A stretch of DNA of 64,000 nt from an uncultured bacterium. Its GTDB lineage: Bacteria; Poribacteria; WGA-4E; GCA-2687025. A program made the position numbers and the translations under genes. Every line of letters starts with the position of its first letter. Within the stretch, counting starts at the first letter, position 1. Location: NCBI GenBank assembly GCA_964473525.1, contig CAYYPK010000031.1, positions 7,820 through 71,819 on the forward strand, in the 5' to 3' direction. The notes under the pieces are model-generated. The model saw only the letters and a program-made list of their open reading frames with translations. It searched no databases and was not told the DNA's origin. Positions 28,930 to 50,900 of the stretch are shown piece after piece.

Positions 28930-28963
28930 GTAGGCAGTCTAACCTCGCGTCCGTCGTCCCGCG

Positions 28964-30088: not shown

Positions 30089-30152
30089 GTTGGGGCCTCT
30101 CAGGTTCGGTTGCCTGTAGCCAGTTACTGAGACGGTAGCCGCATGCCGATCG

Positions 30153-31007
30153 TCAGCCCAGTCTTGCCGCCTGCTCTCGCAGATAGGCGATGCTGATCTC
30201 CACGGCCTCGTCCTCTTCCCACTGACTGCTGAGGCAGTCTACCTCGACGGCGAACGTGCCCTCGTAACCGGCGTTGTCCAGCGCCTTCATGACGCCGGGT
30301 ACGTCAACGAGACCGTGTCCTGCTGGGACGCTCTCCCACCAGTCCCACTCGCTCGGTGAACCGCCGCGGGTCGGCATGAGATCCTTGATGTGCGTCGCGT
30401 GCGTGTGATCCGCCAGAAGGCGCGCCGCCTCGACCGGATCTTCGAACCTCCGCAGGCAGTTACCCGTGTCGAAGTTGACCCCCAGGTGGTCGGAGCCCAC
30501 CGCCTCGATGAGACCCAGGATCTCCGCTGCTGTGTAGTCGATGTGGTTCTCGACCGCCAGGATCACGCCCTTGTCCTCGGCGATGGCGGTTGCGGTCTTG
30601 AGCATAGCGGTGAGCTTCTCGAGTTGCGGGCCGTGCGGCTCGTCGCGGAACATGAGACTGCTGGCGACGATCCGCATCACGTCGGCGCCCAGGGCGACCG
30701 CGGTGTCGATATGTCGGATCATGTCGCGCAGTTCGGCGTCATTCCCTCCCGCCTCGAGGCCGTCGGGATGTCCCCATGCCGCGACGCGTTCGATCCCAGC
30801 GTTGTCCAGCATCGCCTTGAGGTTGGCCAGGTACGCGGCGTCGAACTGCGGGAAGAAGCAGAGCTCCAGCGAAACGCCATCCACGTCGAGCTCGATCGCG
30901 CGCCGTACGAAGTCGTCCGTGGTCCATCTCGTGCCGGGATCGGTCTGGCTGTCGTACACCTCGCCGAAGTAGCGATGGTAGCAGTAGCTGTCTACGCCGA
31001 TCTTCAT
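30153..31007 (-). CDS. sugar phosphate isomerase/epimerase (xylose isomerase-like TIM barrel)
   Basis: 284-aa product with the typical …LAVENH…/…HIKD… pattern of this TIM-barrel family. Confidence 0.8.
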   Translation of the reverse strand: MKIGVDSYCYHRYFGEVYDSQTDPGTRWTTDDFVRRAIELDVDGVSLELCFFPQFDAAYLANLKAMLDNAGIERVAAWGHPDGLEAGGNDAELRDMIRHIDTAVALGADVMRIVASSLMFRDEPHGPQLEKLTAMLKTATAIAEDKGVILAVENHIDYTAAEILGLIEAVGSDHLGVNFDTGNCLRRFEDPVEAARLLADHTHATHIKDLMPTRGGSPSEWDWWESVPAGHGLVDVPGVMKALDNAGYEGTFAVEVDCLSSQWEEDEAVEISIAYLREQAARLG

Positions 31008-31037
31008 GTCCCGCCTTCCGTCCGTCAGTGGGAGCCG

Positions 31038-32231
31038 TCAGTGGGATATCGTGACGCGCGCTCCAGATTCCGCTGAGCGCAACACGGCGTCGAGTACCTG
31101 TTGGTTCTTCCATCCGTCGTAGAAGTCGGGCTGCGGGTCGGTGTCCTCGTGGATGGCGCGGACGAAGTCCGCCACCTGGTGCACGAACGTGTGCTCGTAG
31201 CCTATCGCGTGACCGGGTGGCCACCAGGCGGCGACGTACGGGTGCGCCTCGTCCGTTGTGAGGATGGTGCGGAAGCCTTGGGCGCCAGCGTCGTCCTCGC
31301 GCGAGTAGAACTCGAGCTCGTTCATCCGCTCGAAGTCGAACACAATGCTGCCCTTGCTGCCGTAGATTTCGAAGCGGTTGTGGTTACGGCGGCCAGGCGC
31401 AAACCGGGTGGCTTCGAATGTCCCTACGGCTCCGTTCTCGAATCGGGCTAGGAACGACGCGGTGTCTTCCACCGTGACTTCGCCGGTCTCCACCCCGCCC
31501 TCGGCCGTCAGCATGGTTGTCAGCTCGCCCGTCTCCTGCGGCAGAGGGCGCTCCGTGATGAAGTTGTGGGTTTGCCCCGTGACCTCGGTGATCTCGCCGA
31601 CCAGGTACCGCGCCAGGTCGACCAGATGTGCGTTGAGGTCGCCGTGGGCGCCGGAGCCAGCCGTCTCCGCCCGGAGCTTCCAGATGAGTGGGAAGTCCTC
31701 GTCGACGATCCAGTCCTGCAGGTAGGCGCCGCGGAAATGGAAGATGCGGCCGATCTTGCCTTCCTCGATCAGGCGCCGCGCGTACGCCACCGCCGGCACA
31801 CGTCGATAGTTGAACACGATCATGTGCTTCACGTTCGCCGCGCGGACAGCGTCCAGCATCTCGCGGGCCTCGGCCTCGTTGAGCGCCATCGGCTTCTCAA
31901 GGAGCACGTGCTTGCCGGCCCGCGCAGCGGCGACGGCGATGTCCCGGTGCGTGTTCTGCGGTGACGCTATGTCGACAATGTCGATGTCGTCCCGCTCAAT
32001 GACGCGTTCCCACGACGTGTCAGCCTCCTCCCATCCCCACGCGTCCGCAGCCGCTTGGAGAGGGGCTTCGCTGCGACCACAGATGACCTTCATGACGGGC
32101 TTCGCGTCGCAGGGAAAGAAGAAATCCGCGTCCTTGTAGGCATGGGAGTGCGCCTTCCCCATGAACCTGTAGCCGATCAGCGCGACGTTCAGTTCCGAGG
32201 GCACGAGGCGCCTCCTCTTCCGGCGGGTCAC
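31038..32231 (-). CDS. Gfo/Idh/MocA family oxidoreductase
   Basis: N-terminal NAD(P)-binding segment (…VALIGYRFMGKAHS…) and …GKHVLLEKPMA… characteristic of the family. Confidence 0.85.
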   Translation of the reverse strand: MTRRKRRRLVPSELNVALIGYRFMGKAHSHAYKDADFFFPCDAKPVMKVICGRSEAPLQAAADAWGWEEADTSWERVIERDDIDIVDIASPQNTHRDIAVAAARAGKHVLLEKPMALNEAEAREMLDAVRAANVKHMIVFNYRRVPAVAYARRLIEEGKIGRIFHFRGAYLQDWIVDEDFPLIWKLRAETAGSGAHGDLNAHLVDLARYLVGEITEVTGQTHNFITERPLPQETGELTTMLTAEGGVETGEVTVEDTASFLARFENGAVGTFEATRFAPGRRNHNRFEIYGSKGSIVFDFERMNELEFYSREDDAGAQGFRTILTTDEAHPYVAAWWPPGHAIGYEHTFVHQVADFVRAIHEDTDPQPDFYDGWKNQQVLDAVLRSAESGARVTISH

Positions 32232-32532
32232 GGGCGGTCGTGAAGCGGCGAGACATGTCGGCGTTGCGCTGCGCCGCCCTGGGAGTGCGGCTCCACTCTA
32301 CCTGCTGAGGCGTGAGCACGCAATCCTGGCATCCGCAGGCTCAGGCCGGGACATGCGGGCGGCGGACGGTCTGCCGATGGACGTTACAGCGGTCGGTCAG
32401 CCCTACGGATACCCTCGTCGCGCCCGTCCGCCGGTGGGGAGCTTGCGCCCTCGGCCACCGGGCGCCGATAATCCAGACGGCGGCTTCTCGCGCTCGCGCT
32501 GTCGGCGGGCGAAAGGACGGGGGTAGGAGGCT

Positions 32533-35529
32533 TTGACGCGCGTGCAGCGTACACAATCGACGGTGTTGACTTCGCTTGTCGCGGTCGCGATCTCGGCGCT
32601 CGTGGCCGGATGCGGCTTCGGTGGCGACACAACGCTCAACCGGGCGCGCAAGGCGCTTGCCGCCGGCGACGCGGAGCGCGCCCGCGACGTGCTGTCTCAG
32701 GCGGACGCGTATCCTGCCGACCTGTCTCGCGGGCTGGTCCTGGCCGTTGATCTTGCGGGGAAGCCGGGCGACGACTGGGTGGCAACCACGCGCCTCATCC
32801 TCGATGCTGTCAACGCTACATACCGACAATCCCGCTCAGACGAGCGAACGGCGATCCACTCCTACGTAAGCGCCCGGCAGTTGCGCCGGACCCGCGCAGC
32901 CGCCGAGGCCGCGGATTTCGCCGTCGAGCGCCTCGCGGGTTGGCTTGCGAGCGCCGACCCCGGCGCCCTGCTCTCCGCCCCGGCCGCTGCGGTCGACGTC
33001 TCCCTGCTGGCGACGCGATCCCTGAATACAGCAGTCGCCGCGCGCGCCGACGACATACTCACCACTCTCGGCCCGGCGGCGATCCCGCCGTTGATAGCTG
33101 CGTTGTCTCACGACGCTCCGTCCGCGCGCGCGGCAGCCGTCCGACGGCTGTCGCGGTTGGGAACGGACGAGGCGCTGACGGCCTTGCTGCCCCTGATCGA
33201 CGCCGAGACCGAATTCGAGCCGCTCTACGAACTGCCCATGGCTCTCGGTCGGTTCCCGCTCGCAGACGCCGCCGCTCCGCTCATGGCAATGCTCGCCCTC
33301 CGCGACGACTCCTCACACGCAACGCCGTCCGGCCCTGCCCGGGCGGAGGCCATGGCGCAGCTGGGCCGCGTCCTTCGCGCGGTTCCCGAAGCGCGCGGTG
33401 TTGGCATCCCGGTGGTGATAGCGGGCCTCACGGACGAGCACGATTACGTTCGGTCCCGCGCGGCGTCCATCCTCACGGACCTGCGCCGCGACGCCGTTGG
33501 GCCTTTGCTGGCGCTCCTCGCCGCGGGGTGGCGGGATGAGCCGTTGCCCGTGCTGTCGCTGCTCCAGCCGTCCGTCGAGGTGGAAGCGCGTGTCTCCCTC
33601 TTTGGCGCAGCCTCGACGGCCCTTCTCGCGCTGTCGGAGCCCACCGTGATGACAGCCGACGAACGCGAGACCTTCGTGACCGCGTTGAGGGACGCGCTGT
33701 CGGACGAGACGCGTCGCTCGGTTGCCGTAGAGGCGCTGTCAGCCCTGGGTTCCGACGGCGCGGCTACCCTCTACCCGCTGCTGGACTCCCACGACGCTAG
33801 CGTGCGCGCGCTCGCCGCCGAGACACTGGCGGGGATGGGCGAGGACGCGTCCGCGGACCCGATCGTAGCCAGGATCACGCGGGAGACCGAAGCGGAGCCG
33901 TTGACGGCCATGGTCGCGGCGCTCGGCGCGCTCGACCCGGGCGCCGTGGTCGCGGCGGCAGATGCCCTGGTGGCTGCCGCGGACGGTAGACCCGATGTGC
34001 TCGAAGCGGTCGCTACGGCGCTGGCCGACGCCCTCGAAGGTGGGGCAGACGCCGCGCCGGTCGCGGACGCCGTGGACGCGCTGCTCGTCACGGCGACTGC
34101 CGACAGCGCGCGAGAGGGACTGAGGAGAGCTGCGATACGCGCGCTCGCTCTCCTCGCCCCGGACGGTATCGAGCTGACGATGCGGGACATCATGCTGTCG
34201 GAACACGCCGCGCCCCTCATCCGCAAGTCCGCGGCGGCGGCCCTCACGTCGATGGGTCCGCGCGCGGACGTGGCTCTCGGCGCCATGGAGGAGATCCTTC
34301 ACATCCGCCGCGAGGATCCTGACGCCTTCCTGAAGCGGCTTCGCAAGCGCCACGGATCGGAAGCCAGCCTGAATGCCGCGTGGGGCCAGTTGGGATGGCA
34401 GACAGGCTTCGGCAACTTCCGGGAGGTGAAGGTCATACCGAGCGTGCTGAGGTCCGAGGTCGTTCGCGCGGTGCACACGCTGCGCGGGTCCGATGCCGAC
34501 GACCTGCTCGCGGAAGTGCTGAGAGATGACCAGTCCGCGTCCGTGCGTGCTGTCGCGGCCTCCAAGCTCGCGGACGCGTCCACCCATGTAGACGCTCTGC
34601 TGCGGGCGCTGCGCAAGGACAAGTCAGGCTCTGTCCGCGCCGCGTGCGCCGTCGCGCTCGGACAGATGGGCGACGCTCGCGCCGAGAGGGCGCTACTGCG
34701 CGTCGTCGAGCGCGACGACTACGAGCAGGCGCGTAGGCAGGCGGCCATCGCGGTTGGGTCGCTGGGCGGCGCCAACGCCGCGAAGGCCCTCGCCGCGCTG
34801 CTCATAGCCGATGGGAAGGACGAGGACGACCAACTCACCGATGCGCTCGTGGGCGACATCGCCGACGCATTGGCGGCGATCGGCGAGGCGGGGACGCCGC
34901 ACGTGCTCCCCGGGTTGCAGCACGCCAGCGCAGACGTCCGGCACGCTGCGGTCCGAGCGTTGGCGCCCAATCCGTCGCCGGAGGCCCGCACGGCCTTGCG
35001 AGCTGTCCTCACTGACGATCCAAGCGCCCGCGTCCGCAAGGCTGCTGCCGGCGCGTTGGCCGCGCGGGAGGATCTGGACGTCCTTGCCGCCATCGTGGAC
35101 GACGCTGGCGAGTGGGGCGAGGTCAGAGCCGCAGCGGCGCTCGCGCTGGCCCGCGTAGGCAGGGCAGCGGTCGCGCCGACGCTGGTGGGTCGGCTCGATG
35201 ACCCGATTCCACACGTGCGCGCGGCGTGCGCGACGGCGTTGGGTGAGTTGCACGGCGCCGACGCCGCAGGTCCGCTGGCACGAGCTGCGGAGAATACGTC
35301 CGAGCTGTCGTCGGTCAGGGTCGCCGCCATCCAGGCGCTCGGCGCCATTGACGATGCCGGCGAACCCGCGCTTCTGCGTCTCGCTGCCGTGGAAACCGGC
35401 GCCGTACGCGAGGCTGCCGTCACGGCGCTGGCCGGCATCGAGTCGACCGCTGCCGCAGAGGCGCTGGCAGGAATCGCCGCGTCTCCGGCAGAGCCGAGGG
35501 CGCTGCGCGACATCGCCGCAGGCGACTGA
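32533..35529 (+). CDS. HEAT/PBS-lyase repeat lipoprotein
   Basis: 998-aa product with lipobox LVAGCGFGG. It is built from iterated …D.DVRxAAxxALGxLGD…A.A.LL… HEAT-like repeats. Confidence 0.75.
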   Translation: MTRVQRTQSTVLTSLVAVAISALVAGCGFGGDTTLNRARKALAAGDAERARDVLSQADAYPADLSRGLVLAVDLAGKPGDDWVATTRLILDAVNATYRQSRSDERTAIHSYVSARQLRRTRAAAEAADFAVERLAGWLASADPGALLSAPAAAVDVSLLATRSLNTAVAARADDILTTLGPAAIPPLIAALSHDAPSARAAAVRRLSRLGTDEALTALLPLIDAETEFEPLYELPMALGRFPLADAAAPLMAMLALRDDSSHATPSGPARAEAMAQLGRVLRAVPEARGVGIPVVIAGLTDEHDYVRSRAASILTDLRRDAVGPLLALLAAGWRDEPLPVLSLLQPSVEVEARVSLFGAASTALLALSEPTVMTADERETFVTALRDALSDETRRSVAVEALSALGSDGAATLYPLLDSHDASVRALAAETLAGMGEDASADPIVARITRETEAEPLTAMVAALGALDPGAVVAAADALVAAADGRPDVLEAVATALADALEGGADAAPVADAVDALLVTATADSAREGLRRAAIRALALLAPDGIELTMRDIMLSEHAAPLIRKSAAAALTSMGPRADVALGAMEEILHIRREDPDAFLKRLRKRHGSEASLNAAWGQLGWQTGFGNFREVKVIPSVLRSEVVRAVHTLRGSDADDLLAEVLRDDQSASVRAVAASKLADASTHVDALLRALRKDKSGSVRAACAVALGQMGDARAERALLRVVERDDYEQARRQAAIAVGSLGGANAAKALAALLIADGKDEDDQLTDALVGDIADALAAIGEAGTPHVLPGLQHASADVRHAAVRALAPNPSPEARTALRAVLTDDPSARVRKAAAGALAAREDLDVLAAIVDDAGEWGEVRAAAALALARVGRAAVAPTLVGRLDDPIPHVRAACATALGELHGADAAGPLARAAENTSELSSVRVAAIQALGAIDDAGEPALLRLAAVETGAVREAAVTALAGIESTAAAEALAGIAASPAEPRALRDIAAGD

Positions 35530-35545
35530 TCCTCGCACGCGCTGG

Positions 35546-36472
35546 CTACCCGTCCGCCCGCGCGACGCCAACGCCGAATTCCGCTTCGAATTCCCGCCAT
35601 GTCTCCGCCGGGATGTCCGTAGTCGCGGACTCGTACCCCTGCTCAACCTGACTTGTGTCGCCAGGGCCGAACATCACGACGCCGTCGCACGGCGCCGCCA
35701 GGCAGAATTGCATCGCGAGGTGTCGAATGTTCGCGCCACGGTCCCGGCACCATTGCCACATGTCGTGCGCGCGAGACTGGCGGCCGCCGTGTCGGCGCTT
35801 GTCCGTCTCAGCGTCGGGCTCCAAGCCGGTTAGCAGGCCCATGCCGAGGGGGCTCGCCAAGATGAGGCCGACGTCGTGCTCACGCGCGCCCGCGAGGGTG
35901 GTCGCTTCCGCCGACTGATCCAACAGCGTGTAGTCCAGGTACGTCAGCACGACTCCCGCCTCGCCCGTCTCGATGACACGCCGATGGGACGCATGGTCCC
36001 GTACGCCGACGCCAACGTGCTTGACGAGCCCTTCGTCCCGCATCTTCAGCAGTTCGTCGAACGCCCTGCCGGGCGCGAGGACGTCTTCGATGTCGTCCGG
36101 GTCGTGGACCAGCACGGCGTCCAGGTAGTCGACGCGCAGGTCGCGCAGGCTGTTCGTGACGCTCCATCGCGCCGTTTCCGCGGAGAAGTCCTTGCGCCGG
36201 TCGGGATGCGTGCCCACCTTCGCCTGTAGATAGAATTCTTCCCGCGGCACGTCCGCCAACGCCTGGCCCCAGTAGGTCTCGTTGTGCCCTGGGTACGTGT
36301 CGATGTAGTCCATCCCCAGGTCCAACGCGCGGCGAATGGCCCTCACGACCTCGTCTTCCGGCTGGCGGCAGAGCCACGCGGCGCCTAGCGCCAACGCGCG
36401 CGGCCGCATCTCCGTCTTACCCATGCGTCTAATCGGCAGTTCAGGCATCGGTATCTCCGCTCTGCTCTCCAT
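35546..36472 (-). CDS. aldo/keto reductase
   Basis: AKR-like segments (…MDYIDTYPGH…, …VDYLDAVLVHDPD…, …HVGVGVRD…). The true start may be the internal Met MPELPIRRMG. Confidence 0.78.
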   Translation of the reverse strand: MESRAEIPMPELPIRRMGKTEMRPRALALGAAWLCRQPEDEVVRAIRRALDLGMDYIDTYPGHNETYWGQALADVPREEFYLQAKVGTHPDRRKDFSAETARWSVTNSLRDLRVDYLDAVLVHDPDDIEDVLAPGRAFDELLKMRDEGLVKHVGVGVRDHASHRRVIETGEAGVVLTYLDYTLLDQSAEATTLAGAREHDVGLILASPLGMGLLTGLEPDAETDKRRHGGRQSRAHDMWQWCRDRGANIRHLAMQFCLAAPCDGVVMFGPGDTSQVEQGYESATTDIPAETWREFEAEFGVGVARADG

Positions 36473-36818
36473 CGGGCGGCTCTGCGACAGTGTAGCGCGA
36501 GGCGAGGGTGGTCACACGCGGCTCGGGCGACACGCGGTCGCCACCAGCAGCGCGGGCCTCTGCCTATGGCGCAACGCCGACGACATTCGCTATATGTAGC
36601 GGCAGCGGATGTCCGAAGCCCCGCACGCCGCGCGAACGCGCGCTCAGGGCTCGGCCTGACCGCTCGCAATGTTGGTCCGCGCCAGCGAGAACAGCGGAGC
36701 TGAATCCCCTCTCGCCGACGGAGAGCGTTAGGGTGAGGGCGGATGCAGGCCTGCGGTCGCAGGCCGGCGCCGGTCGATCCGCACATACGGGCCACGCAGC
36801 CTGGGAGAGAGTAGCGCA

Positions 36819-37961
36819 TTGAAGCAGCGCTGGACGACGCACGCCGATCTCGCGATCAAGAAGCCCATGCACGTCCGGCGTGAGGAGTACCTGGATCACA
36901 TGACGTTCCAGGCCAACGAGCGCCCTCTGTTCACAGAGATCTTCGGCCCGATCATCGGGCTGAAGGAGGAGTGGCACGCCCAGGGCGCTACGGAAGCCGA
37001 ATTGGACATGTCGCACTACCGCTACCGATGCCCAGCATTTGGCGGCGTGCCCGTCAACACAGGGTGGATGGGCGGCCCGCCGTCGCAAGTGCTCGAAGAG
37101 AACGACAAGGTCATCATCACGCGGGACCGCATGGGCCGTACGATGCGGATGGACAAGGGGTTCGCGACTCTCGCCCTGCCGCAGGACTGGCCCGTCGCCA
37201 CCATGGACGACTGGCTGAGCGTCCGGCATCACTACGAGTTCTCAGAGGAACGCTTCGGCCGCGACTGGGAAGCCGCGGCGCGCGCGCATCGCGAGGCGGG
37301 TCGCGTTGTGACAGTGGGCATCCCTGGCGGCTTCGACCAGCCACGGCAGCTCATGGGCGAGGCGGCCCTGTGCGAGGCGTACTACGACGACCCAGAGCTG
37401 GTCCACGACATGCTGGACACCATAGGCGAGACGGCGTGCCGCGTCCTCGACCGCGTGTCGCAGACTGTGCCCCTTGACCAGCTCAGCGTGCACGAGGACA
37501 TGGCGGGCAAGAGCGGCCCGCTCGCCGGCCCGGCTCAGATACGTGAGTTCATCGCGCCGTACTACCGCCGCGTCTGGGACATGCTTCACGACCGTGGAGC
37601 GCGGCTCTTCGATCAGGATTCCGACGGCGACATGAACCCGGTGATACCAGCGTTCCTGGATGCCGGCGTGAACGTCATGCATCCCATGGAGGGCGCCGCG
37701 AACATGGACGTCGTCGCGGTTCGTGAGACGTACGGCGAGCGTCTCGCGTTCTACGGCGGCATCGACAAGCACATCATACGGCGCAGCAGGGAGGAGATCG
37801 TCGCGGAGTTGGAGGCGAAGATCCCGCCAATGATTGCTACCGGAGGATGCGTCATCGCCCTCGACCATCGCATCCCCAACGGCACGCCATTGGAGAACTA
37901 CCGCTTCTACGTGGACACTGCCTGGGAGATCATTGAGCGGGAGGCCGCACGGGTGGCATAG
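36819..37961 (+). CDS. uroporphyrinogen decarboxylase (URO-D)/MtaA-like family protein
   Basis: 380-aa product with URO-D-fold family resemblance (…FYGGIDKH…, …CVIALDHRIP…). TTG start with a GGGAGAGAG Shine-Dalgarno. The context is not tetrapyrrole biosynthesis. Confidence 0.6.
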   Translation: MKQRWTTHADLAIKKPMHVRREEYLDHMTFQANERPLFTEIFGPIIGLKEEWHAQGATEAELDMSHYRYRCPAFGGVPVNTGWMGGPPSQVLEENDKVIITRDRMGRTMRMDKGFATLALPQDWPVATMDDWLSVRHHYEFSEERFGRDWEAAARAHREAGRVVTVGIPGGFDQPRQLMGEAALCEAYYDDPELVHDMLDTIGETACRVLDRVSQTVPLDQLSVHEDMAGKSGPLAGPAQIREFIAPYYRRVWDMLHDRGARLFDQDSDGDMNPVIPAFLDAGVNVMHPMEGAANMDVVAVRETYGERLAFYGGIDKHIIRRSREEIVAELEAKIPPMIATGGCVIALDHRIPNGTPLENYRFYVDTAWEIIEREAARVA

Positions 37962-38133
37962 TCGGCGGCTCGTCCCAGACATGCCCGCCGACGCCCGTCG
38001 CGTGACACAACGCCCGACCGCGCCGGTAGCGCCACGATGATGGCGCCTTGCCCGTCTACCGGGCCGAAGGCCATAATGGCGCCCGCGCGGCCGTGCGTAG
38101 CGCCCATCCACCCGCCAACGAGATCCGACCCGC

Positions 38134-40200
38134 ATGAAGAGCAACGGCGATGCAACGCGGCTGGAGATGGCCCACGTCCTCTTCATGGACGTCGTCGGCT
38201 ACACCCGTCTGTCGCTGGAGCGGCAAGGCGCCTGCATCCAGCAACTCCAAGCCCTCGTGCGCGGCACGCCGACCTTCCAGCAGGCCGAAGCGGACGGGTT
38301 CCTCCTCAGTCACCCGTCCGGCGACGGGATGGCGCTGGCGTTCTTCGACGACCCCACCGCGCCGGTGCGGTGTGCGTTGGAGATCGCGGACAGGATGCGT
38401 GGCGGGCAGAACATCGAGTTGCGGATGGGCGTTCATTCCGGCCCAGTAACGCGCGGCGAGGACATCAACGGCATGCCCAACGTGCGCGGGCAGGCCATCA
38501 ACATGGCGAACCGCGTGATGGACTGCGGCGACGCCGGCCATATCCTCGTGTCGCGCAGCGCCGGTGACATCCTCAGCGAACTCACCAGGTGGGCAGAGGC
38601 GCTCGTCGATCTTGGCGAGGCAGAGATAAAGCACGGCGAGAGCATCGGCCTGTACAGCCTCGTGGATGGGGGCCTCGGCAATCCCGCTCGTCCGTCTCGG
38701 CTCCCCTCCGCGGCACTGGAGCCCGTGGAACCCACGCCGCCCAGTGGCGCGCACGTGGCGCTCCTGTACCGCCGCAACGCGCAGCCCGACGGGGCAGTGC
38801 TCGACGCGCTTGATGAGCACCTGCGGGAGGCGGGCCACACGGTCTTCATAGACCGGCACATGACGGTCGGGATCGAGTGGGCGCGTGAGATCGAAGGTCA
38901 GATACGCGCTGCGGACATCGTCGTCGCGCTACTGTCGGCCAGCTCGGTGCGCAGCGAGATGCTGGACTACGAGGTGCGCGTCGCGCATGAGGCGGCGCAG
39001 GCGCAGGACGGCCGCCCGCGGATGTTACCCATACGCGTGGACTACGACGGAGCCCTCCCTCCACCCATGGCGGCGATCCTGGACCAGCTCCAGCAGTTCA
39101 TCTGGACGTCAGCCGACGACAACGACCAGATGGTGACGGAGATCGCGCAGGCCATCGACGGCCCGGCGCCCGTGGTCGATGCGGGCGAGGTATCCACGCC
39201 GGTCGGCGGCGCCGTTCCCATCGACTCGAAGCTCTACGTCGTCAGGCCGACCGACGACCAGTTCCACCGCGCCGTCTCACGGAAGGACAGCATCGTGCTC
39301 GTGAAGGGCGCGCGGCAGATGGGCAAGACGTCTCTGCTCGCCCGAGGCCTGCAGCAGGCGCGCGACATGGGCGTGCAGGCGCTGTTCACTGATTTGCAGG
39401 CGTTGAGCCCCGAGCAGGTGTCGTCGCCGGAGGAGTTCTTCCTGGCGATGGCGTACTCCCTCGCGGATCAGATGGACCTCGACGTGTTCCCAGAGGAGCG
39501 TTGGACGGATCGCCTCGGGCCGGGCGTGAATTTCGAGCGCTACCTGCGACGGGTCGTGCTTGCGGACGCCGATCACGTCCTATGGGCGCTGGACGAGGTG
39601 GACCGCATGTTCATCACCGACTACGCAAGCGAGGTGTTCGGGCTGTTCCGGTCGTGGCACAACAAGCGCGCGCTCGACCCCGATGGACCGTGGAGTCGTC
39701 TCACGTTGGCTATCGCGTACGCCACGGAGGCGCACCTGTTCATCACGGACGTGAACCAGTCGCCGTTCAACGTAGGCACGCGCCTCGAGCTAGCCGACTT
39801 CGACGTGGCGCAGATAGCCGAACTCAATCGCCGCCACGGCGCGCCGCTGAGCGCGACGGACGTCGACGCGTTCGCGCGTCTGGTCGGTGGGCACCCGTAC
39901 CTCGTGCAGCGCGGGTTCCAGGCGTTCGTAGAGGGTGGCGTGACCTACGCGACGCTCGAAGCGACGGCTGCCGACGACGACGGCCCCTACGGCGACCATC
40001 TGCGACGCATCCTTTTCCTGCTTGCGCAGAACGATCAGCGCCGCGCCGCGGTCGCGGGCCTCACGCAAGGCTCCATCGATGTCGACCCCGAGACGTTCTA
40101 TCACCTGCGCACGGCGGGACTGCTGACCGGAGCATCGATGCGGCAGGCGGAGTTCAGGAACGGGCTGTACGCCGACTACCTCGGCAGGCATCTGGCGTAG
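38134..40200 (+). CDS. multidomain signalling/conflict protein: class III adenylyl/guanylyl cyclase domain + TIR domain + AAA-like (STAND-type) ATPase
   Basis: Cyclase (aa ~5-185): …HVLFMDVVGYTRL…GDGMALAFFDD…RMGVHSGPV…NVRGQAINMANRV…HILVS. TIR-like (aa ~205-330): …VALLYRRNAQPDGAVLDALDEHLREAGHTVFIDRHMTVGIEW…IVVALLSASSVRSEMLDYEV. ATPase (aa ~375-640): …KLYVVRPTDDQF…IVLVKGARQMGKTSLLARGL…LWALDEVD… It matches the AAA-like PF14516 family as I remember it. Confidence 0.72.
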   Translation: MKSNGDATRLEMAHVLFMDVVGYTRLSLERQGACIQQLQALVRGTPTFQQAEADGFLLSHPSGDGMALAFFDDPTAPVRCALEIADRMRGGQNIELRMGVHSGPVTRGEDINGMPNVRGQAINMANRVMDCGDAGHILVSRSAGDILSELTRWAEALVDLGEAEIKHGESIGLYSLVDGGLGNPARPSRLPSAALEPVEPTPPSGAHVALLYRRNAQPDGAVLDALDEHLREAGHTVFIDRHMTVGIEWAREIEGQIRAADIVVALLSASSVRSEMLDYEVRVAHEAAQAQDGRPRMLPIRVDYDGALPPPMAAILDQLQQFIWTSADDNDQMVTEIAQAIDGPAPVVDAGEVSTPVGGAVPIDSKLYVVRPTDDQFHRAVSRKDSIVLVKGARQMGKTSLLARGLQQARDMGVQALFTDLQALSPEQVSSPEEFFLAMAYSLADQMDLDVFPEERWTDRLGPGVNFERYLRRVVLADADHVLWALDEVDRMFITDYASEVFGLFRSWHNKRALDPDGPWSRLTLAIAYATEAHLFITDVNQSPFNVGTRLELADFDVAQIAELNRRHGAPLSATDVDAFARLVGGHPYLVQRGFQAFVEGGVTYATLEATAADDDGPYGDHLRRILFLLAQNDQRRAAVAGLTQGSIDVDPETFYHLRTAGLLTGASMRQAEFRNGLYADYLGRHLA

Positions 40201-40268
40201 GCTGCCGCCGCCCTCGCGCGTGTCGCGCATCGGCCTTGGCAGCAAACGATAGGGAGTTCGCAGGACGC

Positions 40269-41435
40269 ATGCCCATCTATGAGATAACCGACGGAGGGTT
40301 GGCGCCCGTCTCGCCAACTACGTTCGCTGACGAGGACATCAAGGAACGCGAGGACCTCCAACAGCTCGTCAAGGGCCGGATCGCTGTTCTCGCTGGCGAG
40401 TTGCCAGACGTAGACGAATTGATGGTGCTCTCGGAGGAATTTAGCGACTGGGAGGACAGCCGTCGGCGCATCGACCTCCTCTGTCTAGACAAGGACGCTG
40501 GTCTCGTCGTCGTTGAACTGAAGCGCACCGAGGACGGCGGCCACATGGACCTACAGGCTCTGCGATACGCCGCGATGGTGTCGGCAATGACGTTTGAGCA
40601 GGCTGCTCGTGCGCACGGCGCGTACCTGCGCAACGAGGCCCACGCTGAGGCGAAGGGTGAGGATGTCGCTGAGGACATCACTGCGCATGCTGCGTCGTCC
40701 ATCCTCGCGTTCCTGGAGTGGGACGAACCCGACGAGGACAGCTTTGCGCAGAACGTGCGGATTGTCCTGGCGTCGGCAGAATTCTCGCGAGAACTCACAA
40801 CTGCCGTCATGTGGCTGAACGAACGAGATGTCGACATCCGCTGCGTGCGGATGCGTCCTTACAAGCTCGACGGGACGCTGCTGATAGATGTGCAGCAGAT
40901 CATCCCGCTCCCAGAATCAGTGGACTATCAGGTACGCATTCAGGAAAAAGCGCGTAGCGAGCGGGCATCAAGGGCGGGACAACGGAATTGGGATCGCGAG
41001 CAATTCACCGCCGAGGTCCGACGCAACCGTGGCGACGATGCAGCGACAGCTGTGGCTGACATGCTGGACTGGGCGGAGGAGCACGCTGACGATATCGCGT
41101 GGGGGAAGGGAGCCGAGGGGAGCTTCAGTCCACGTCTGGACGGCGCAGCGAATCGCTTCGCGGGCTTCATGGTGTGGACTGGGGGCACAGTCGAAAACCA
41201 GTTGCAGCAGCATGTCAAGAATGGGCCCTTCGCCGAGGAGTCACTGCGCGCCGAATGGCTAGACAGGCTCAACGCACTCCCCGGAGTGCAGCTGCCCACC
41301 GACGCCGTGTCCGCCAGACCTAGTTTCAGCCTGCCCGTCCTCCTGGCCCCGGCCGCGATGCAGGGATTCAAGGATGTCTACGAGTGGGTCATACGTACGG
41401 TACGTGACTTCGATCAGACCGACGACCCCGGTTGA
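40269..41435 (+). CDS. PD-(D/E)xK (NucS/DUF91-like) nuclease-fold protein with a C-terminal extension
   Basis: 388-aa product starting MPIYEITDGGL…; the core motif is …RRIDLLCLDKDAGLVVVELKRTED…LQALRY… The track ORF beginning at 39501 is an over-extension, and Met 40269 lies 68 bp after the stop of the upstream gene. Confidence 0.6.
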   Translation: MPIYEITDGGLAPVSPTTFADEDIKEREDLQQLVKGRIAVLAGELPDVDELMVLSEEFSDWEDSRRRIDLLCLDKDAGLVVVELKRTEDGGHMDLQALRYAAMVSAMTFEQAARAHGAYLRNEAHAEAKGEDVAEDITAHAASSILAFLEWDEPDEDSFAQNVRIVLASAEFSRELTTAVMWLNERDVDIRCVRMRPYKLDGTLLIDVQQIIPLPESVDYQVRIQEKARSERASRAGQRNWDREQFTAEVRRNRGDDAATAVADMLDWAEEHADDIAWGKGAEGSFSPRLDGAANRFAGFMVWTGGTVENQLQQHVKNGPFAEESLRAEWLDRLNALPGVQLPTDAVSARPSFSLPVLLAPAAMQGFKDVYEWVIRTVRDFDQTDDPG

Positions 41436-43551: not shown

Positions 43552-44805
43552 CTATCCCCACGGGCCGCTTGCGGTAGGTTGGCGGGGGAACCATGCGCTC
43601 AGAACAGTCGCCGCTGATGGATGGATGCTCTCCCGGTCAGAGATGGGAGCTTCCTCAAAGGAGAGGATTCCTAGCAGGAGTTTCGTCAGAGATCCCTGGT
43701 CGGTTTGCATGCGAAACGCCGCATCGCCCACGGTTACGTCTGTGGTGACAGCTCCATCGCCAACCCTCAAGCCGACACGCTGGCTCTCAAAGCCGATCTC
43801 AATCTCGCCGCGCCAATCCGCAGCACTGCTGGAACGCAACCGCAGTTCCAATTCGGGGGTCAGTTTGCTCAGCAGGGAAGCGAGATGGACTATCTGAATC
43901 ATGTTCGAGGCGCGTCCACCCTGACGCTCAATCAACGTGAAAGCGATGTCTGCCCCTGTCAGTATCCGCAGAACGGCTGCATCAAAGGGAAGGCGAGAGC
44001 TGACAGAACTGACGCCGCGTTCGGCAGCAAGGTGGAGGATCTGTTGCATCAATCCCACCAACGCATCTGGGCGTGAGAGGTTGAATGCGACCTCGCCAAT
44101 CGACCTGCCGCCATCCCCGGCGAACAGATAGCCTTCGACGATGCCATCGGCTTCGTAGACCAGCCGCAACGGATTGGGAGAAGAGGGTCGGCTGGGCAGC
44201 TTGGCGTTCGGGTCGAGATCTCGGACCTTGGAGCCACTGCGTCCATTGTTGAACACTCCGTACAGTTCGTCGTTGCGAACCGCATCGCGGCTGGCGTCAT
44301 AGGGCCGGACCTCACCAGGCAGACCTTCCGGGGGACGAAAGACCTCCTGCACAGACATGAGGTTCGCCCCGGCGCGGACGGGTTCGATTGGGAATTCAAC
44401 GGAACGCCTGGGAAGGGGGACGTAGCCGAAACGGCGATAGAAGATGGAGGAACCGCCCAGCCTGGAGATGTCGCAATCGCTGTCGCGCATCCATTGAACG
44501 ACATCGCGCATCAATGCGCTGCCGTAGCCCTTACCCTGGAATTGGGGCAGGACAGAGACTTCCCCGACATCCGCTTTGACGATTTCGCAACTCCCGACGC
44601 ATAGACGTTCGGGCTTGACGATCGCCACTCCGACAACTGTCCCTTCGACCTCCAGAACGCGGAACCGTTGCGCGTCTCTTACTGCTAGCTTGTGCCAGCT
44701 ATGCCACCTGTCAGAGTTCTCCTCGACTTGGAAGGCCCTCACCATGACCTCGAAGATCGCTTCCGTGTCATCAGCAACGCCGCTACGCGAACGAAATCCC
44801 TGCAT
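43552..44805 (-). CDS. GNAT acetyltransferase with a C-terminal SCP2-like domain (Eis-like architecture)
   Basis: N-terminal GNAT segment (…VVGVAIVKPE…QFQGKGYGSALMRDV…). The ~400-aa length with a C-terminal domain resembles Eis-type enzymes. The family call is from memory. Confidence 0.6.
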   Translation of the reverse strand: MQGFRSRSGVADDTEAIFEVMVRAFQVEENSDRWHSWHKLAVRDAQRFRVLEVEGTVVGVAIVKPERLCVGSCEIVKADVGEVSVLPQFQGKGYGSALMRDVVQWMRDSDCDISRLGGSSIFYRRFGYVPLPRRSVEFPIEPVRAGANLMSVQEVFRPPEGLPGEVRPYDASRDAVRNDELYGVFNNGRSGSKVRDLDPNAKLPSRPSSPNPLRLVYEADGIVEGYLFAGDGGRSIGEVAFNLSRPDALVGLMQQILHLAAERGVSSVSSRLPFDAAVLRILTGADIAFTLIERQGGRASNMIQIVHLASLLSKLTPELELRLRSSSAADWRGEIEIGFESQRVGLRVGDGAVTTDVTVGDAAFRMQTDQGSLTKLLLGILSFEEAPISDRESIHPSAATVLSAWFPRQPTASGPWG

Positions 44806-45121: not shown

Positions 45122-45211
45122 TGGCGGAGAGAGAGGGATTCGAACCCTCGGTGACATTGCTGCCACACATGATTTCCAGTCATGCCAGTTAAGCCGCTCC
45201 TGCATCTCTCC
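45122..45211 (-). tRNA. tRNA-Ser (anticodon GGA), class II tRNA with long variable arm and encoded CCA
   Basis: Hand-folded: 7-bp acceptor GGAGAGA/TCTCTCC, 3-bp D-stem CAG/CTG, anticodon stem CATGA/TCATG with loop CTGGAAA, an ~18-nt variable arm, T-arm GAGGG-TTCGAAT-CCCTC, discriminator G and CCA. Confidence 0.85.
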
Positions 45212-47951: not shown

Positions 47952-50900
47952 ATGCGGAAGATAGACACTCCTCGGACCCGGCGATCCCTGTCCTTGCGCC
48001 GCGCGCCGATCGTGGCGTGGTGCGTCCTCCTGCTCGTAGCAACTCTCCATCACGCGCACGCGCAACGCCTGGACCTCACCCTGTCCGAAGACGCCGAAGC
48101 GATACGCCGCGCTGTCGGTATGGACAACATCAAGCGCGACATCGCCAGGCTCACTGCGCTCGAAAGCCGAGTAAGTGGCTTCCCGGGCGCCGATAGCGCG
48201 TCCAAGTACGTCTTTGATCGGTTCCAGGAGATCGGCCTCGACGACGTCGAGACGCGCACCTTCACCATGACCGTGCCGATGGAGCACGGGCTCGGGTCCA
48301 TGGTCGTCCGAGATGCGGACGGCGCCGAGATACGCCAGATCGACGTTCGGGCCGTGTGGCCCAATCTCGTACGCACCTCCTTCCTGCCGAACGGGCTGAA
48401 GCACACTGTCGAGAGTGGGCACACGCTCGAGTGGATAGGCGCCGCCTACCAGGTGGATCCAGCCGACATCGTAGCGGACATGCGCAACCAGGCTCTCCGT
48501 AACCAGCGCACCGACGGTCTGGACAACGACAACGACGGCCTGGTGGACGCCGCGGACCCCGACGGTGAAGTGACGCCCGTCGAAGGCACGTCCATCTTCG
48601 TTCCCACGGGCGGCCTGCAAGGTCGGCTCATCTACGGTAGCAGGTCCGCGCTACGCAACTACGACGGCAAGGAAGTTGGCGGGTTCTGGCACTCCGTGAG
48701 CCCAGACGACACGCTCGACGGCGTCGCTCGCAGATACCGTGTCACCCCCGGTAGCATCCTTGACGACGTCCTGAACCTGCACCTGAGCCGCAGCCAGGAC
48801 GGGATCGACAACGACGCCGACGGCGAGATCGACGAGGACGGCGAGATCGACCCGTTCGCGGTGATCGCCGCGTGGGCGTCCGACGGGGTCGACAACGACG
48901 GCGACGGGATGATCGACGAGGCCGCCGACAAGGACCTGGCGAAGACATCGGAGGCGTCCGTCTTCATCCCGCGCGGCTCGATCGTGCTGGCGGACTTCAA
49001 CTCCAGCACCAACTGGATCAACGCCGCGATGCTCGGCGCGCAGGCGGTCCTCTTCATTGAGCCAGAGGACACGATCCGTGGCGAGGCCGAGAACAAATAC
49101 CTTACCGTACCGGCGAACCTGCCCCGATTCTGGATCGGTAAGGCCGACGCCGACGAACTCCTGGAGATCCTGGGCGAGGATGGCGGGGCGTCCGTCTATC
49201 TGTCCGCCCAGCTCACCGCCGACGTGCGCTGGGAGCGGCGTCCGGCCCAGAACGTGCAGGGCATCCTGCCCGGCGCCGACCCGGTGCTTCGTGACGAGCT
49301 GATCGTCGTCCAGAGCTACTACGACTCCATGTCCGTTGTGCCGTCCCTGGCGCCTGGGGCGCAGACGACATCCGGCATCGCGTCGATGTTCGAGTTGGCG
49401 CGCCTCCTGAAGCAGCCGGAATTCCGGCCGGCGCGTTCGGTGCTGTTCCTGGCGACGGGAGGTCATTTCCAGGGCCTCAGCGGCATGCGCGCCTTCATGG
49501 AAGGCCTGAGCCAGGACAACGTTGAGACGATGCGCGAGATGCGCCGCGACCTCAACCAGGACGTCATTGAGTTCCAGGAACTCGGCCGCAAGATGGCCCT
49601 CTCGATCGACCGCGGCTACCTTGTCGAGTTTCCGCCCGCGTTCTTCCACCGTGTCGAGGACATCGCGACGGACCTCGATTCGGTCGTCAGCAGCCTGAAC
49701 GACCTCGCCGCCGCACAGCGACAGGTAGACCGGCTAGCTGAGGCGCAGCGCGCGGACAAGGAAGAGCAGCGCAAGCGTAAGACGGCGGACCTCTCGAAGA
49801 ACCGCGACGCACAGAACTTCACCGAGGAGGAACGCGCGCTCCTCAACGTTCACCTCGCTCGCGCCGAATTCCTTGGCCTGCAGACTGCCCAATTCCTCAA
49901 GGACGTAACACGGCGCATCGGGGACCTGAAGGTCATCGGCCTTCTCAAGTCGCGCGAGACCGAGCGGCAGATTCTGAACGACGTCGCGATCCCTATCGCC
50001 CAGTTGGACGTGTGGGCGATGGCTCAGGTCCGCGCCATCGCGGAAAGCGGCCAGGTTGGCGACGGCTATTCGCGGGACCGCGCCGATAGCTTGCTGCCGT
50101 ACGAGGACCGCGCGGCGCCTCCCGCGGCTGCTCTCAACACCATGCAGCCGGTGGTGATCCCCGGCTTCGGCGAACTCGATCCCAGGGACGCGTTCGATCA
50201 TCTGGCCAGCCCTGGCGTGCTGGACGAGTGGGAGATCGTGAAGGGCCGAGTCTCCACCCTCTACATTCCCGACAAGGTTCTCGGACGCCATCTGAACGCT
50301 GTTGAGCTAGGGCGCCTACGACGCGCCGCGAAGACGCTGAACGAACGGGCGTCCGGGTCGGACTACGCTAAGACGCGCAACGATCTCCTCGCGAAGGCTC
50401 TGGCGGCAGCGCAAGGGTACGCAGGGGCGGCGGGCGACATCGCGACGATCCAGGGGGCGCTGCAAGCGGGGTCGTTCCGCGCGATCCGCCCCGCCCTCGC
50501 GCGATACCTGACCGACGACGAGATGCGCGGGGCCGAGGCGAGCTTCGCCGAGCTCCAGGACGGCGCCGAATACGCTGCCGAGGAGTTAGCGCACTTCCTG
50601 AACATCGCGGAGCGGCGGCTCGAGCAGGAGGGGCCGCGACTCGAGAGCCTCCTCAGCGCGGCGCAGTCCGGCGCCCTCAACCGCGCCTTCCGCGCGGAGG
50701 AGCAGCTGGCGCTTGCCAATCATCTCACCCAGGCTGACCAGGATGGGCTAGCGGGCGCGCACGAGCAGCTCGTCGCGGAGTACGACCACGAGACGTATCT
50801 CGGCGTGGCGGAGGCCCGCGCGCGCAACGACGTGCTGGAACTCGCGCAGCTACAGCGTCTCGTCCCGACGATGGAGCGCGCCTTCACCGAGGGCGAAAAG

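What the first reader, a model, noticed from the sequence alone, without database searches (positions are those of the whole stretch)
38134..41435. Candidate undescribed two-gene conflict or signalling module: nucleotidyl cyclase-TIR-AAA-like ATPase fusion followed by a PD-(D/E)xK nuclease-fold protein
Gene A (688 aa) combines a class III cyclase domain with intact metal-binding aspartates (FMDVVGYT, GDGMALAF), a TIR domain and an AAA-like NTPase (GARQMGKTSL; DEVD Walker B). These are three modules that individually define the Pycsar (cyclase), Thoeris/CBASS (TIR) and STAND/Avs (NTPase) families of antiphage systems, but I do not know this particular fusion from described systems. Gene B, 68 bp downstream, has a NucS/DUF91-type PD-(D/E)xK core (IDLLCLDKDAGLVVVELK) plus a ~250-aa C-terminal domain. 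That is a plausible effector or sensor partner. The pair lies inside a putative tRNA-Ser-associated island.
Basis: partly seen in the sequence, partly recalled or inferred. Interest (0 to 1): 0.8.

Follow-up and report, generated by a model that had tools for sequence, protein, structure and literature searches.

The report
Two unrelated neighbouring defence-type genes
The two genes are real and correctly described, but they are neighbours and not partners: the first is a lone member of a large, untested family of immune-receptor-like proteins, and the second is a known single-gene anti-phage nuclease in a slot where related genomes carry a different defence cassette.

Summary
Gene B (40269-41435, 388 aa) is a NucS-like PD-(D/E)xK nuclease.

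No B relative lies within 10 kb of 80 A homologues, and no A relative lies near 80 B homologues. In syntenic orthologues of A (about 72% aa identity), DNA homology stops at A's stop codon. There a different candidate defence system, PDC-M11A/B, fills B's place.

B matches PADLOC PDC-S11 (E 1.8e-110). That candidate is a single-gene system recently shown, as "Madara", to restrict modified T-even phage. B's GC3 is foreign (0.725 against about 0.85).

A has host-like composition and is under purifying selection. Its family is large: 1,625 50%-identity cluster representatives. The family's usual partner is a downstream second AAA_35 gene encoding a single-pass membrane protein with WD40, TPR or PEGA repeats. 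This window has no such gene.

A's AAA_35 domain has a STAND/Orc-like fold. A is most likely an NLR-like protein that switches on its TIR and cyclase by oligomerising. It has not been characterised experimentally.

The parts
38134..40200 (+). Gene A: 688-aa cyclase-TIR-AAA_35 protein. It is a solo member of the family, with no second AAA_35 partner gene in the window.
   Evidence: ORF. Pfam. Identical protein on public metagenome contigs. dN/dS 0.145 against the orthologue in L167. GC3 0.865, host-like. No partner in the window.
38161..38673 (+). Class III nucleotidyl cyclase domain (residues ~10-180). Metal Asp D19 and D64; N123 and R127. The purine-selecting pair is non-canonical (H60/N116).
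38746..39162 (+). TIR domain (residues ~205-343) with the invariant S274-x-M276-x3-E280 motif at the start of helix alpha-C.
39208..40182 (+). AAA_35 NTPase module (residues 359-683): Walker A G392-L401, Walker B D487-D490. It has a STAND/Orc-Cdc6-like fold with helical and winged-helix parts. No C-terminal sensor repeats follow.
40201..40268 (+). 68-bp spacer. DNA homology with the orthologous locus L167 ends at 40198, so the variable region starts here.
   Evidence: blastn of L167 against the window. The spacer hairpin folds no better than shuffled sequence, z = -0.49. No terminator-like site.
40269..41435 (+). Gene B: 388-aa PDC-S11 ('Madara')-family nuclease, a stand-alone cassette of foreign composition.
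   Evidence: PADLOC PDLC04909 1.8e-110. GC3 0.725. No conserved partner in 80 homologue loci. 342 plasmid records carry relatives.
40269..40598 (+). NucS-like PD-(D/E)xK nuclease core of B (E56/E57, D69, E83, K85, Q96-x3-Y100).
40599..41039 (+). Middle region of B, conserved across the family (to residue ~257). This is the end of the part covered by the PDC-S11 profile.
   Evidence: PADLOC match covers residues 1-257. 67 of 80 homologues align only over the first ~230-300 residues.
41040..41432 (+). Variable C-terminal domain of B (residues ~258-388), shared by only 11 of 80 homologue loci. It weakly resembles the YdhG/YjbR/MotA-CTD fold and is a possible target-recognition domain.

Best explanation
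A and B are two independent genes that happen to be adjacent.

Gene B is a mobile, single-gene restriction-type nuclease of the PDC-S11/Madara family. It has an N-terminal NucS-like PD-(D/E)xK nuclease and a swappable C-terminal recognition domain. It sits in a variable slot that begins exactly at A's stop codon. By analogy with the characterised E. coli member, it probably cleaves foreign, possibly modified, DNA on its own.

Gene A is a vertically retained, solo member of a large family of NLR-like proteins. The family's constant core is TIR plus an AAA_35 (STAND/Orc-like) NTPase. The N-terminus is interchangeable: cyclase, tandem cyclase, Ser/Thr kinase, SARP or nothing.

Proposed mechanism for A (inferred, not shown). 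A trigger promotes NTP-dependent oligomerisation of the AAA_35 module. This brings TIR domains together, and TIR NADase sites form between protomers. It also brings cyclase domains together, because class III cyclases are active only as dimers. The assembly would then emit an NAD-derived product or deplete NAD+, and produce a cyclic nucleotide.

In most family members, a co-transcribed second AAA_35 protein probably supplies the trigger. That protein has a single transmembrane helix followed by WD40, TPR or PEGA repeats. In this window that partner is absent, so A either senses directly, uses a partner encoded elsewhere, or acts alone.
For: Independence of A and B:
- 0 of 80 and 0 of 80 reciprocal co-occurrence.
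- The syntenic orthologues P0002 and P0247 carry a PDC-M11A/B pair in B's place, and the homology break is at A's stop codon.
- B has foreign GC3 and A has host GC3.

Identity of B:
- PDC-S11 at 1.8e-110.
- NucS-like fold and an invariant D/E-x-K motif.
- No conserved neighbour; type I R-M genes are the commonest neighbours.
- Frequent on conjugative plasmids.
- The ECOR34 PDC-S11 protein restricts glucosyl-hmC T4, and D63A abolishes this (bioRxiv 10.64898/2026.09.05.749240).

Identity of A:
- Domains pass Pfam cut-offs and the catalytic residues are invariant.
- dN/dS 0.10-0.22 in all three domains.

Family anatomy:
- The partner AAA_35 gene is immediately downstream in 43 of 67 loci with enough sequence.
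- Partner domains are WD40, TPR, PEGA or caspase, and 18 of 20 partners have one TM helix.
- Kinase, SARP and tandem-cyclase N-termini occur.
- Solo cyclase-type genes are common, 16 of 43.
- Some neighbours of homologues hit defence models: NsnA, MzaA, PD-T4-2, AriA, SduA, PtuB.
Against: - No activity of A has been measured. Oligomerisation-driven activation is an analogy with STAND/NLR and TIR systems.
- A shows features unusual for fast-evolving defence genes: 50-55% identity across phyla, host-like codon usage, conserved synteny with metabolic genes and low dN/dS.
- Its N-terminal domains (cyclase, kinase, SARP) are classic signalling modules and not toxins.
- The membrane-receptor-like partner suggests envelope or extracellular sensing, which would fit physiological signalling as well as immunity.
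- PADLOC has no model that matches A beyond weak TIR and P-loop hits.
- The defence-neighbour count had no control.
- B's C-terminal domain differs from most PDC-S11 members, and the best profile does not cover it. Its target specificity cannot be taken from Madara.
Confidence: 0.72

Rival explanations
1. A and B are one two-gene system: A senses infection and makes a cNMP or NAD-derived signal (or recruits B directly), and B is the nuclease effector.
For: Same strand, a 68-bp gap, and no terminator-like site between them. Both have conflict-type domains.
Against: - No co-occurrence in 80 plus 80 loci.
- The closest orthologues of A have PDC-M11A/B in B's place.
- The homology break is exactly at A's stop codon.
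- B differs in GC3.
- B's family is a stand-alone candidate system with experimental single-gene activity.
Confidence: 0.04
2. A is not an immune protein. It is a physiological signal-transduction enzyme: an NTPase-gated adenylate/guanylate cyclase whose TIR domain acts as an assembly scaffold. In the family at large, the transmembrane AAA_35-repeat partner would act as an environmental receptor.
For: - Host-like composition and conserved synteny with metabolic genes.
- Strong purifying selection.
- High cross-phylum conservation.
- N-terminal modules are cyclase, kinase or SARP.
- The partner is a single-pass membrane protein with WD40, TPR or PEGA repeats after the transmembrane helix.
- Rare on plasmids.
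- The surrounding window genes are not defence genes.
Against: - The invariant TIR catalytic-position Glu argues for an enzyme and not a scaffold.
- TIR plus STAND is a hallmark immune architecture.
- Paralogue expansions occur within genomes, and the N-terminus shuffles.
- Caspase and CHAT-STAND neighbours occur.
- Some homologues have defence neighbours.
- A flanks a defence hotspot.
- cNMP cyclases fused to STAND NTPases form a predicted immune clade (bioRxiv 10.64898/2026.08.12.744502).
Confidence: 0.27
3. B is a housekeeping NucS/EndoMS mismatch-repair endonuclease.
For: Weak NucS_C and NCBIfam NucS hits. The best structural match is NucS.
Against: - NCBIfam NucS score is 17 against a cutoff of 216.
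- The domain order is reversed: the nuclease is N-terminal here.
- The C-terminus is variable and the GC3 is foreign.
- Relatives are on plasmids and next to type I R-M genes.
- Orthologous loci lack it.
Confidence: 0.02

Closest known systems
PDC-S11 (PADLOC phage-defence candidate), renamed 'Madara': a single-gene, modification-dependent, type IV-like restriction nuclease (for gene B)
   Same: The profile match is 1.8e-110 over residues 1-257. Both have an N-terminal NucS-like PD-(D/E)xK nuclease, with a catalytic Asp in the RRIDLL motif (D69 here, D63 in Madara by position). Both are single genes, mobile, and neighbours of other restriction systems.
   Different: B's C-terminal ~130 residues fall outside the profile match and are shared by only 11 of 80 homologues. 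They weakly resemble YdhG/YjbR/MotA-CTD folds. The E. coli protein's C-terminal domain is described as EVE-like. Target specificity is therefore unknown.
Bacterial TIR-STAND / NLR-like defence proteins (Avs family, TIR-NLR, bNACHT) and plant TIR-NLRs (for gene A)
   Different: - No C-terminal TPR, LRR or WD40 sensor is present in the same polypeptide.
- An intact class III cyclase sits N-terminal to the TIR.
- No Avs, NLR or bNACHT model in PADLOC matches.
- The family's sensor-like repeats are in a separate membrane-anchored AAA_35 paralogue, which resembles paired sensor/helper NLRs.
Pycsar / Pucsar (cyclase plus cNMP-activated TIR or TM effector)
   Different: - Here the cyclase and TIR are fused, with no cNMP-binding domain anywhere.
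- No Pycsar model hits.
- A 2026 preprint places STAND-fused cyclases in a separate, uncharacterised 'immune clade 1'.
NTP-dependent conflict systems of multicellular bacteria (Kaur, Burroughs, Iyer & Aravind 2020, eLife, PMC7159879)
   Same: The same domain vocabulary: cNMP cyclase, S/T kinase, TIR and caspase fused or adjacent to NTPases with WD40 or TPR arrays. Paralogue expansion and shuffling are also shared.
   Different: A term search of that paper for 'AAA-like' and 'Cdc6' found nothing, and none of its cyclase passages describes this fusion. The text was not read in full. The two-AAA_35-gene operon with a single-pass membrane partner therefore appears undescribed there.

Membership tests
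PDC-S11 / Madara (gene B) | Match to the PADLOC PDC-S11 profile HMMs | tested here: met
   PDLC04909 1.8e-110 and four further PDC-S11 models between 4e-94 and 5e-28. Coverage is limited to residues 1-257.
PDC-S11 / Madara (gene B) | N-terminal NucS-like PD-(D/E)xK nuclease with a catalytic Asp | tested here: met
   D69, E83 and K85 are invariant. NucS is the top structural hit.
PDC-S11 / Madara (gene B) | Works as a single gene, with no obligate partner | tested here: met
   No conserved neighbour in 80 homologue loci. Single-gene activity of the ECOR34 protein is reported in the preprint. It was not tested for this protein.
PDC-S11 / Madara (gene B) | EVE-like C-terminal modification reader and modification-dependent restriction | tested here: inconclusive
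   [not shown]
NucS/EndoMS mismatch endonuclease (gene B) | Reaches the NCBIfam/Pfam NucS thresholds and has the NucS domain order | tested here: not met
   17 bits against a cutoff of 216 (NCBIfam) and 17.2 against 24 (Pfam). The nuclease is N-terminal here.
Class III nucleotidyl cyclase (gene A, N-terminus) | Pfam Guanylate_cyc above threshold, two metal Asp residues, and the Asn/Arg transition-state pair | tested here: met
   [not shown]
Class III nucleotidyl cyclase (gene A, N-terminus) | Canonical purine-selecting pair (Lys/Asp for ATP, Glu/Cys for GTP) | tested here: not met
   By alignment to Rv1900c the positions are H60 (Leu in the family consensus) and N116. The substrate cannot be predicted.
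TIR NADase (gene A, middle) | TIR fold plus a conserved catalytic Glu at the start of helix alpha-C | tested here: met
   [not shown]
STAND / NLR-like NTPase (gene A, C-terminus) | P-loop NOD with Walker A and B followed by helical and winged-helix domains | tested here: met
   [not shown]
Avs (antiviral STAND) | C-terminal TPR-like sensor in the same protein, and a match to Avs models | tested here: not met
   The protein ends with the AAA_35 module at residue 683 of 688. No Avs model appears in the PADLOC output.
Pycsar | A stand-alone cyclase plus a separate effector with a cNMP-binding domain | tested here: not met
   No cNMP-binding domain in A or B. No Pycsar model hit.
Thoeris / CBASS | ThsA (SIR2 or TM with SLOG) partnered with ThsB; or a CD-NTase | tested here: not met
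   No such domains in A, B or the neighbouring genes.
Cyclase/kinase-TIR-AAA_35 family with an AAA_35-TM-repeat partner (defined here) | A second AAA_35 gene immediately downstream | tested here: not met
   Present in 43 of 67 informative homologue loci but absent from the whole 64-kb window. The window gene is of the solo type, like 16 of 43 cyclase-type loci.

The most novel reading that the evidence does not exclude
The A family may define a bacterial paired-NOD signalling system that has not been described. A single-pass membrane protein (AAA_35 NTPase, then a TM helix, then WD40, TPR or PEGA repeats) would act as the receptor. It would nucleate hetero-oligomerisation with a soluble TIR-AAA_35 protein. 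The induced proximity would switch on both a TIR NADase and a dimer-dependent cyclase or kinase. That logic combines the sensor/helper NLR pair with the route from a Toll-like receptor to a TIR adaptor, and it gives a dual second-messenger output. The window's gene would be a solo derivative that has lost both the partner and the second, degenerate cyclase copy.
Probability: 0.2. Interest if true: 0.8.

Novelty: new variant of a known kind. Interest (0 to 1): 0.45.

Why it matters
The proposed A+B module should not be pursued as such. Cloning the pair would most likely rediscover a PDC-S11-type restriction nuclease.

The useful lead is gene A's family. It has thousands of strongly conserved cyclase- or kinase-TIR-AAA_35 proteins in Armatimonadota, Verrucomicrobiota, Acidobacteriota and Actinomycetota. 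They are usually in an operon with a membrane-anchored AAA_35-repeat paralogue. No PADLOC model covers them, and the library held here contains no experimental work on them.

If they are immune proteins, they would add an NLR-like class whose sensor and effector NODs are split between two genes and which has a cyclase output. If they are physiological, they would be an example of TIR and STAND modules used outside immunity. Either result bears on how TIR-NLR logic evolved.

The locus also gives a clean example of a defence hotspot. The boundary falls exactly at a gene's stop codon, and two different candidate systems occupy the slot in close relatives.

Tried and rejected
1. A+B co-occurrence was tested in both directions and rejected.
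2. The tRNA-Ser island was rejected. There is no att-like repeat of the tRNA end, no integrase, and host-like genes lie between B and the tRNA.
3. The spacer hairpin between A and B as a terminator was rejected: its energy is no better than shuffles, z = -0.49, and there is no T-tract.
4. A large defence island around the pair was rejected. The flanking window genes are URO-D, an aldo-keto reductase, a HEAT-repeat protein, NHL, a methyltransferase, a GNAT, an ion channel and PspA. They give only generic PADLOC hits.
5. Literature searches for PF14516, AAA_35 and Guanylate_cyc+TIR_2 found nothing relevant.
7. B as a NucS orthologue was rejected on thresholds and domain order.
8. PADLOC on 109 neighbour ORFs of A homologues gave scattered defence hits. 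There was no matched control, so this is treated as weak evidence only, and the second half of the ORF set was not run.
9. DNA for the P0002 contig could not be fetched. The equivalent orthologue locus L167 was used instead.
Full report
**Observation**

Gene A is 38134-40200 (+), 688 aa. Gene B is 40269-41435 (+), 388 aa. B follows a 68-bp spacer and has an AGGGAG Shine-Dalgarno-like motif about 12 nt before its ATG.

Pfam assigns A three domains above curated thresholds:
- Guanylate_cyc, E 4.9e-9
- TIR_2, E 4.3e-18
- AAA_35, E 7.8e-70, covering positions 4-329 of the 331-position profile

In an alignment of 34 homologues the following are invariant: D19, D64, N123 and R127 in the cyclase; E280 in the TIR; K398/T399 and D487/E488 in the NTPase.

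Aligning the cyclase to Rv1900c confirms the two metal-binding Asp residues and the Asn-x3-Arg pair. It also shows that the purine-selecting positions are H60 (Leu in the family consensus) and N116. This is neither the Lys/Asp pair of adenylate cyclases nor the Glu/Cys pair of guanylate cyclases, so the nucleotide substrate cannot be read from the sequence.

**Are A and B a module?**

No. The tests were as follows.
- I fetched 80 loci of A homologues, with 10-kb flanks, from species-representative genomes (540 such loci exist). tblastn with B found nothing.
- I fetched 80 metagenome loci of B homologues. tblastn with A found nothing.
- Contexts of A's closest relatives settle the matter. The 72%-identical orthologue P0002 lies in the same synteny: ADH, HEAT-repeat protein, aldo-keto reductase, URO-D, then A. 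In B's place it has a 506-aa gene and an ASCH-domain gene, and an NHL fragment and the same methyltransferase follow.
- A second orthologue locus with DNA available, L167, is collinear with window 28359-40198 at 70-80% nucleotide identity. Homology stops at A's stop codon.
- The two genes that follow in L167 are PDC-M11A (2.4e-198) and PDC-M11B (3e-44). This is a different PADLOC candidate defence system.
- The 60%-identical relative P0003 sits beside other AAA_35 genes and a CHAT-STAND-TPR gene, again without B.

Composition agrees with this. A's GC3 is 0.865, like its neighbours (0.79-0.89). B's is 0.725.

The slot after A is therefore a small variable defence hotspot, and B is one of its interchangeable cargoes.

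**What B is**

B matches five PDC-S11 profiles, the best at 1.8e-110 over residues 1-257. PDC-S11 is a single-gene phage-defence candidate. A 2026 preprint renames the E. coli ECOR34 member 'Madara'. It shows that this member restricts T-even phages and glucosyl-hmC T4 but not unmodified T4. It also shows that D63A in the nuclease motif abolishes defence. It describes an N-terminal NucS-like nuclease linked to an EVE-like C-terminal domain.

In the 80 homologue loci B has no conserved partner. Its commonest neighbours are type I R-M subunits, in 3-4 loci each. Relatives occur on 342 plasmid records, 154 of them conjugative.

**What A is**

The fusion is not rare. The word-indexed search returned 6,420 hits at E<=1e-5 (only 8,000 candidates are scored). 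The best 120, those listed, are mostly ~700-aa proteins with the same three domains at 49-56% identity, from Armatimonadota, Verrucomicrobiota, Acidobacteriota and other phyla. An exhaustive HMMER search with the TIR-AAA_35 part finds 1,625 50%-identity cluster representatives at E<=1e-30.

The N-terminus is interchangeable:
- a single cyclase
- a tandem cyclase whose second copy has lost the metal Asp (P0002, P0003, P0247)
- a Ser/Thr kinase, which is the Acidobacteria type
- cyclase plus kinase
- SARP
- nothing (L011)

The window's A lacks about 600 bp that its orthologue has, corresponding to the degenerate second cyclase. It is nevertheless under purifying selection in all three domains: dN/dS is 0.14 in the cyclase, 0.22 in the TIR and 0.10 in AAA_35.

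**The family's real partner**

Clustering the neighbours of the 80 homologues gave one conserved neighbour. It is a second, divergent AAA_35 gene (~30% identity to A's AAA_35), usually 30-160 bp downstream on the same strand.

Counts for the 67 loci with at least 1 kb of downstream sequence:

| Position of the partner gene | Loci |
|---|---|
| Immediately downstream | 43 |
| Elsewhere in the flank | 8 |
| Absent | 16 |

All 24 loci without an N-terminal cyclase (the kinase type among them) have the partner immediately downstream. All 16 solo loci are cyclase-type.

The partners carry AAA_35 followed by WD40, TPR, PEGA or caspase domains. In 18 of 20 partners a single predicted transmembrane helix sits right after the NTPase module.

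The window contains no such gene. A here is a solo copy, as in about a third of cyclase-type loci.

**Mechanism**

What is shown: the domain identities, the conserved catalytic residues, the STAND-like fold, purifying selection, and the family's gene-pair anatomy.

What is inferred: by analogy with STAND/NLR proteins and TIR enzymes, NTP-dependent oligomerisation of AAA_35 would bring TIR domains together, because their NADase sites form across protomers. It would also bring cyclase domains together, because class III cyclases are obligate dimers. The tandem active-plus-degenerate cyclase in the closest relatives fits a dimer requirement. The result would be an NAD-derived and/or cNMP output. 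In paired loci the membrane-anchored repeat protein is the natural candidate sensor. What triggers a solo A is unknown.

Immune or physiological? This is open.
- For an immune role: the TIR-STAND architecture with a conserved catalytic-position Glu, paralogue expansions (four loci in one Chthonomonadales MAG), N-terminal shuffling, caspase and CHAT-STAND neighbours, scattered defence-model hits among neighbours (no control), and A's position at the edge of a defence hotspot. In addition, a 2026 comparative analysis places STAND-fused cNMP cyclases in a predicted but uncharacterised 'immune clade 1'.
- Against an immune role: unusually high cross-phylum conservation, host-like composition, stable synteny with metabolic genes, low dN/dS, signalling-type N-terminal domains, a receptor-like membrane partner, rarity on plasmids (only distant TIR-AAA_35 relatives, mostly in filamentous cyanobacteria), and no PADLOC model.
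- I put about 0.5 on an immune or conflict role and about 0.27 on physiological signalling.

The 'tRNA-Ser-associated island' is not supported. The only tRNA (45122-45211, minus strand) is 3.7 kb beyond B, and host-like genes lie between them. There is no integrase; the gene next to the tRNA is an ion channel. There is no att-like repeat. A GNAT gene next to the tRNA (43552-44805) does look foreign, with GC3 0.665. In the P0002 contig that position holds an N6/N4 methyltransferase and an ArdC-N protein instead. That is a second, separate variable spot.

The comparisons with Pycsar, Thoeris and CBASS hold only at the level of shared domains. No cNMP-binding domain, ThsA or CD-NTase is present.

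**Verdict**

B is a member of a known single-gene candidate defence family. A is a solo and slightly reduced member of a large, experimentally untouched family of NLR-like proteins with a cyclase. I class it as a new variant of a known kind. Interest is moderate for this locus (0.45). The higher-value lead is the family-level pairing of two AAA_35 genes with a membrane-anchored sensor-like partner, and that pairing lies outside this window.

Noticed in passing
L167:12628-14518 (and the P0002 contig): In orthologous loci, the slot occupied by gene B in the window holds a PDC-M11A/B pair (2.4e-198 and 3e-44). The PDC-M11A start overlaps the stop codon of the A orthologue by 4 bp. This is a clean defence-hotspot swap whose boundary is at a stop codon.
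   Followed up: yes
L004-L080 (e.g. L016:2426-5164, L044:11542-14976, L053:12982-15456): A second AAA_35 gene lies immediately downstream of most A homologues. It encodes a single-pass membrane protein with C-terminal WD40, TPR, PEGA or caspase domains, which gives a receptor-like, paired-NOD arrangement.
   Followed up: partly
P0002, P0003, P0247 (L167:10555-11160): A's closest relatives carry a tandem cyclase whose second copy has lost the metal-binding Asp, reminiscent of the mammalian C1/C2 pseudo-heterodimer. The window gene lacks this ~600-bp segment.
   Followed up: partly
window 43552-44805 (-): A GNAT acetyltransferase next to tRNA-Ser has GC3 0.665 against about 0.85 for the host. 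The P0002 contig has an N6/N4 methyltransferase and an ArdC-N gene at the equivalent place. This is a second variable spot, separate from the one holding B.
   Followed up: partly
L082:1530-10340: A TARA marine contig carries two cyclase-TIR-AAA_35 paralogues and an AAA_35-WD40 gene. On the longer overlapping contig L081, the gene after the next one downstream is a CHAT-nSTAND-TPR protein.
   Followed up: no
window 24626-26602 (-) and 27031-28929 (-): Two paralogous genes lie side by side, each with DUF6785 plus DUF6784 (E ~1e-144 to 1e-149). Their function is unknown.
   Followed up: no
window 47952-55070 (+): A 2,372-aa ORF combines Peptidase_M28, a MacB periplasmic core domain and an FtsX-like permease. 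This is an unusually large fusion.
   Followed up: no
L012, L024, L034, L045 (one Chthonomonadales MAG); L041:10001-17642: A-family genes are expanded within genomes. One MAG has at least four loci, and one Acidobacteriaceae locus has two convergent copies.
   Followed up: no
window 41040-41432 (C-terminus of B): B's C-terminal domain is the minority type in its family (11 of 80 loci). It weakly resembles YdhG/YjbR/MotA-CTD folds and not the EVE-like domain reported for E. coli Madara.
   Followed up: partly
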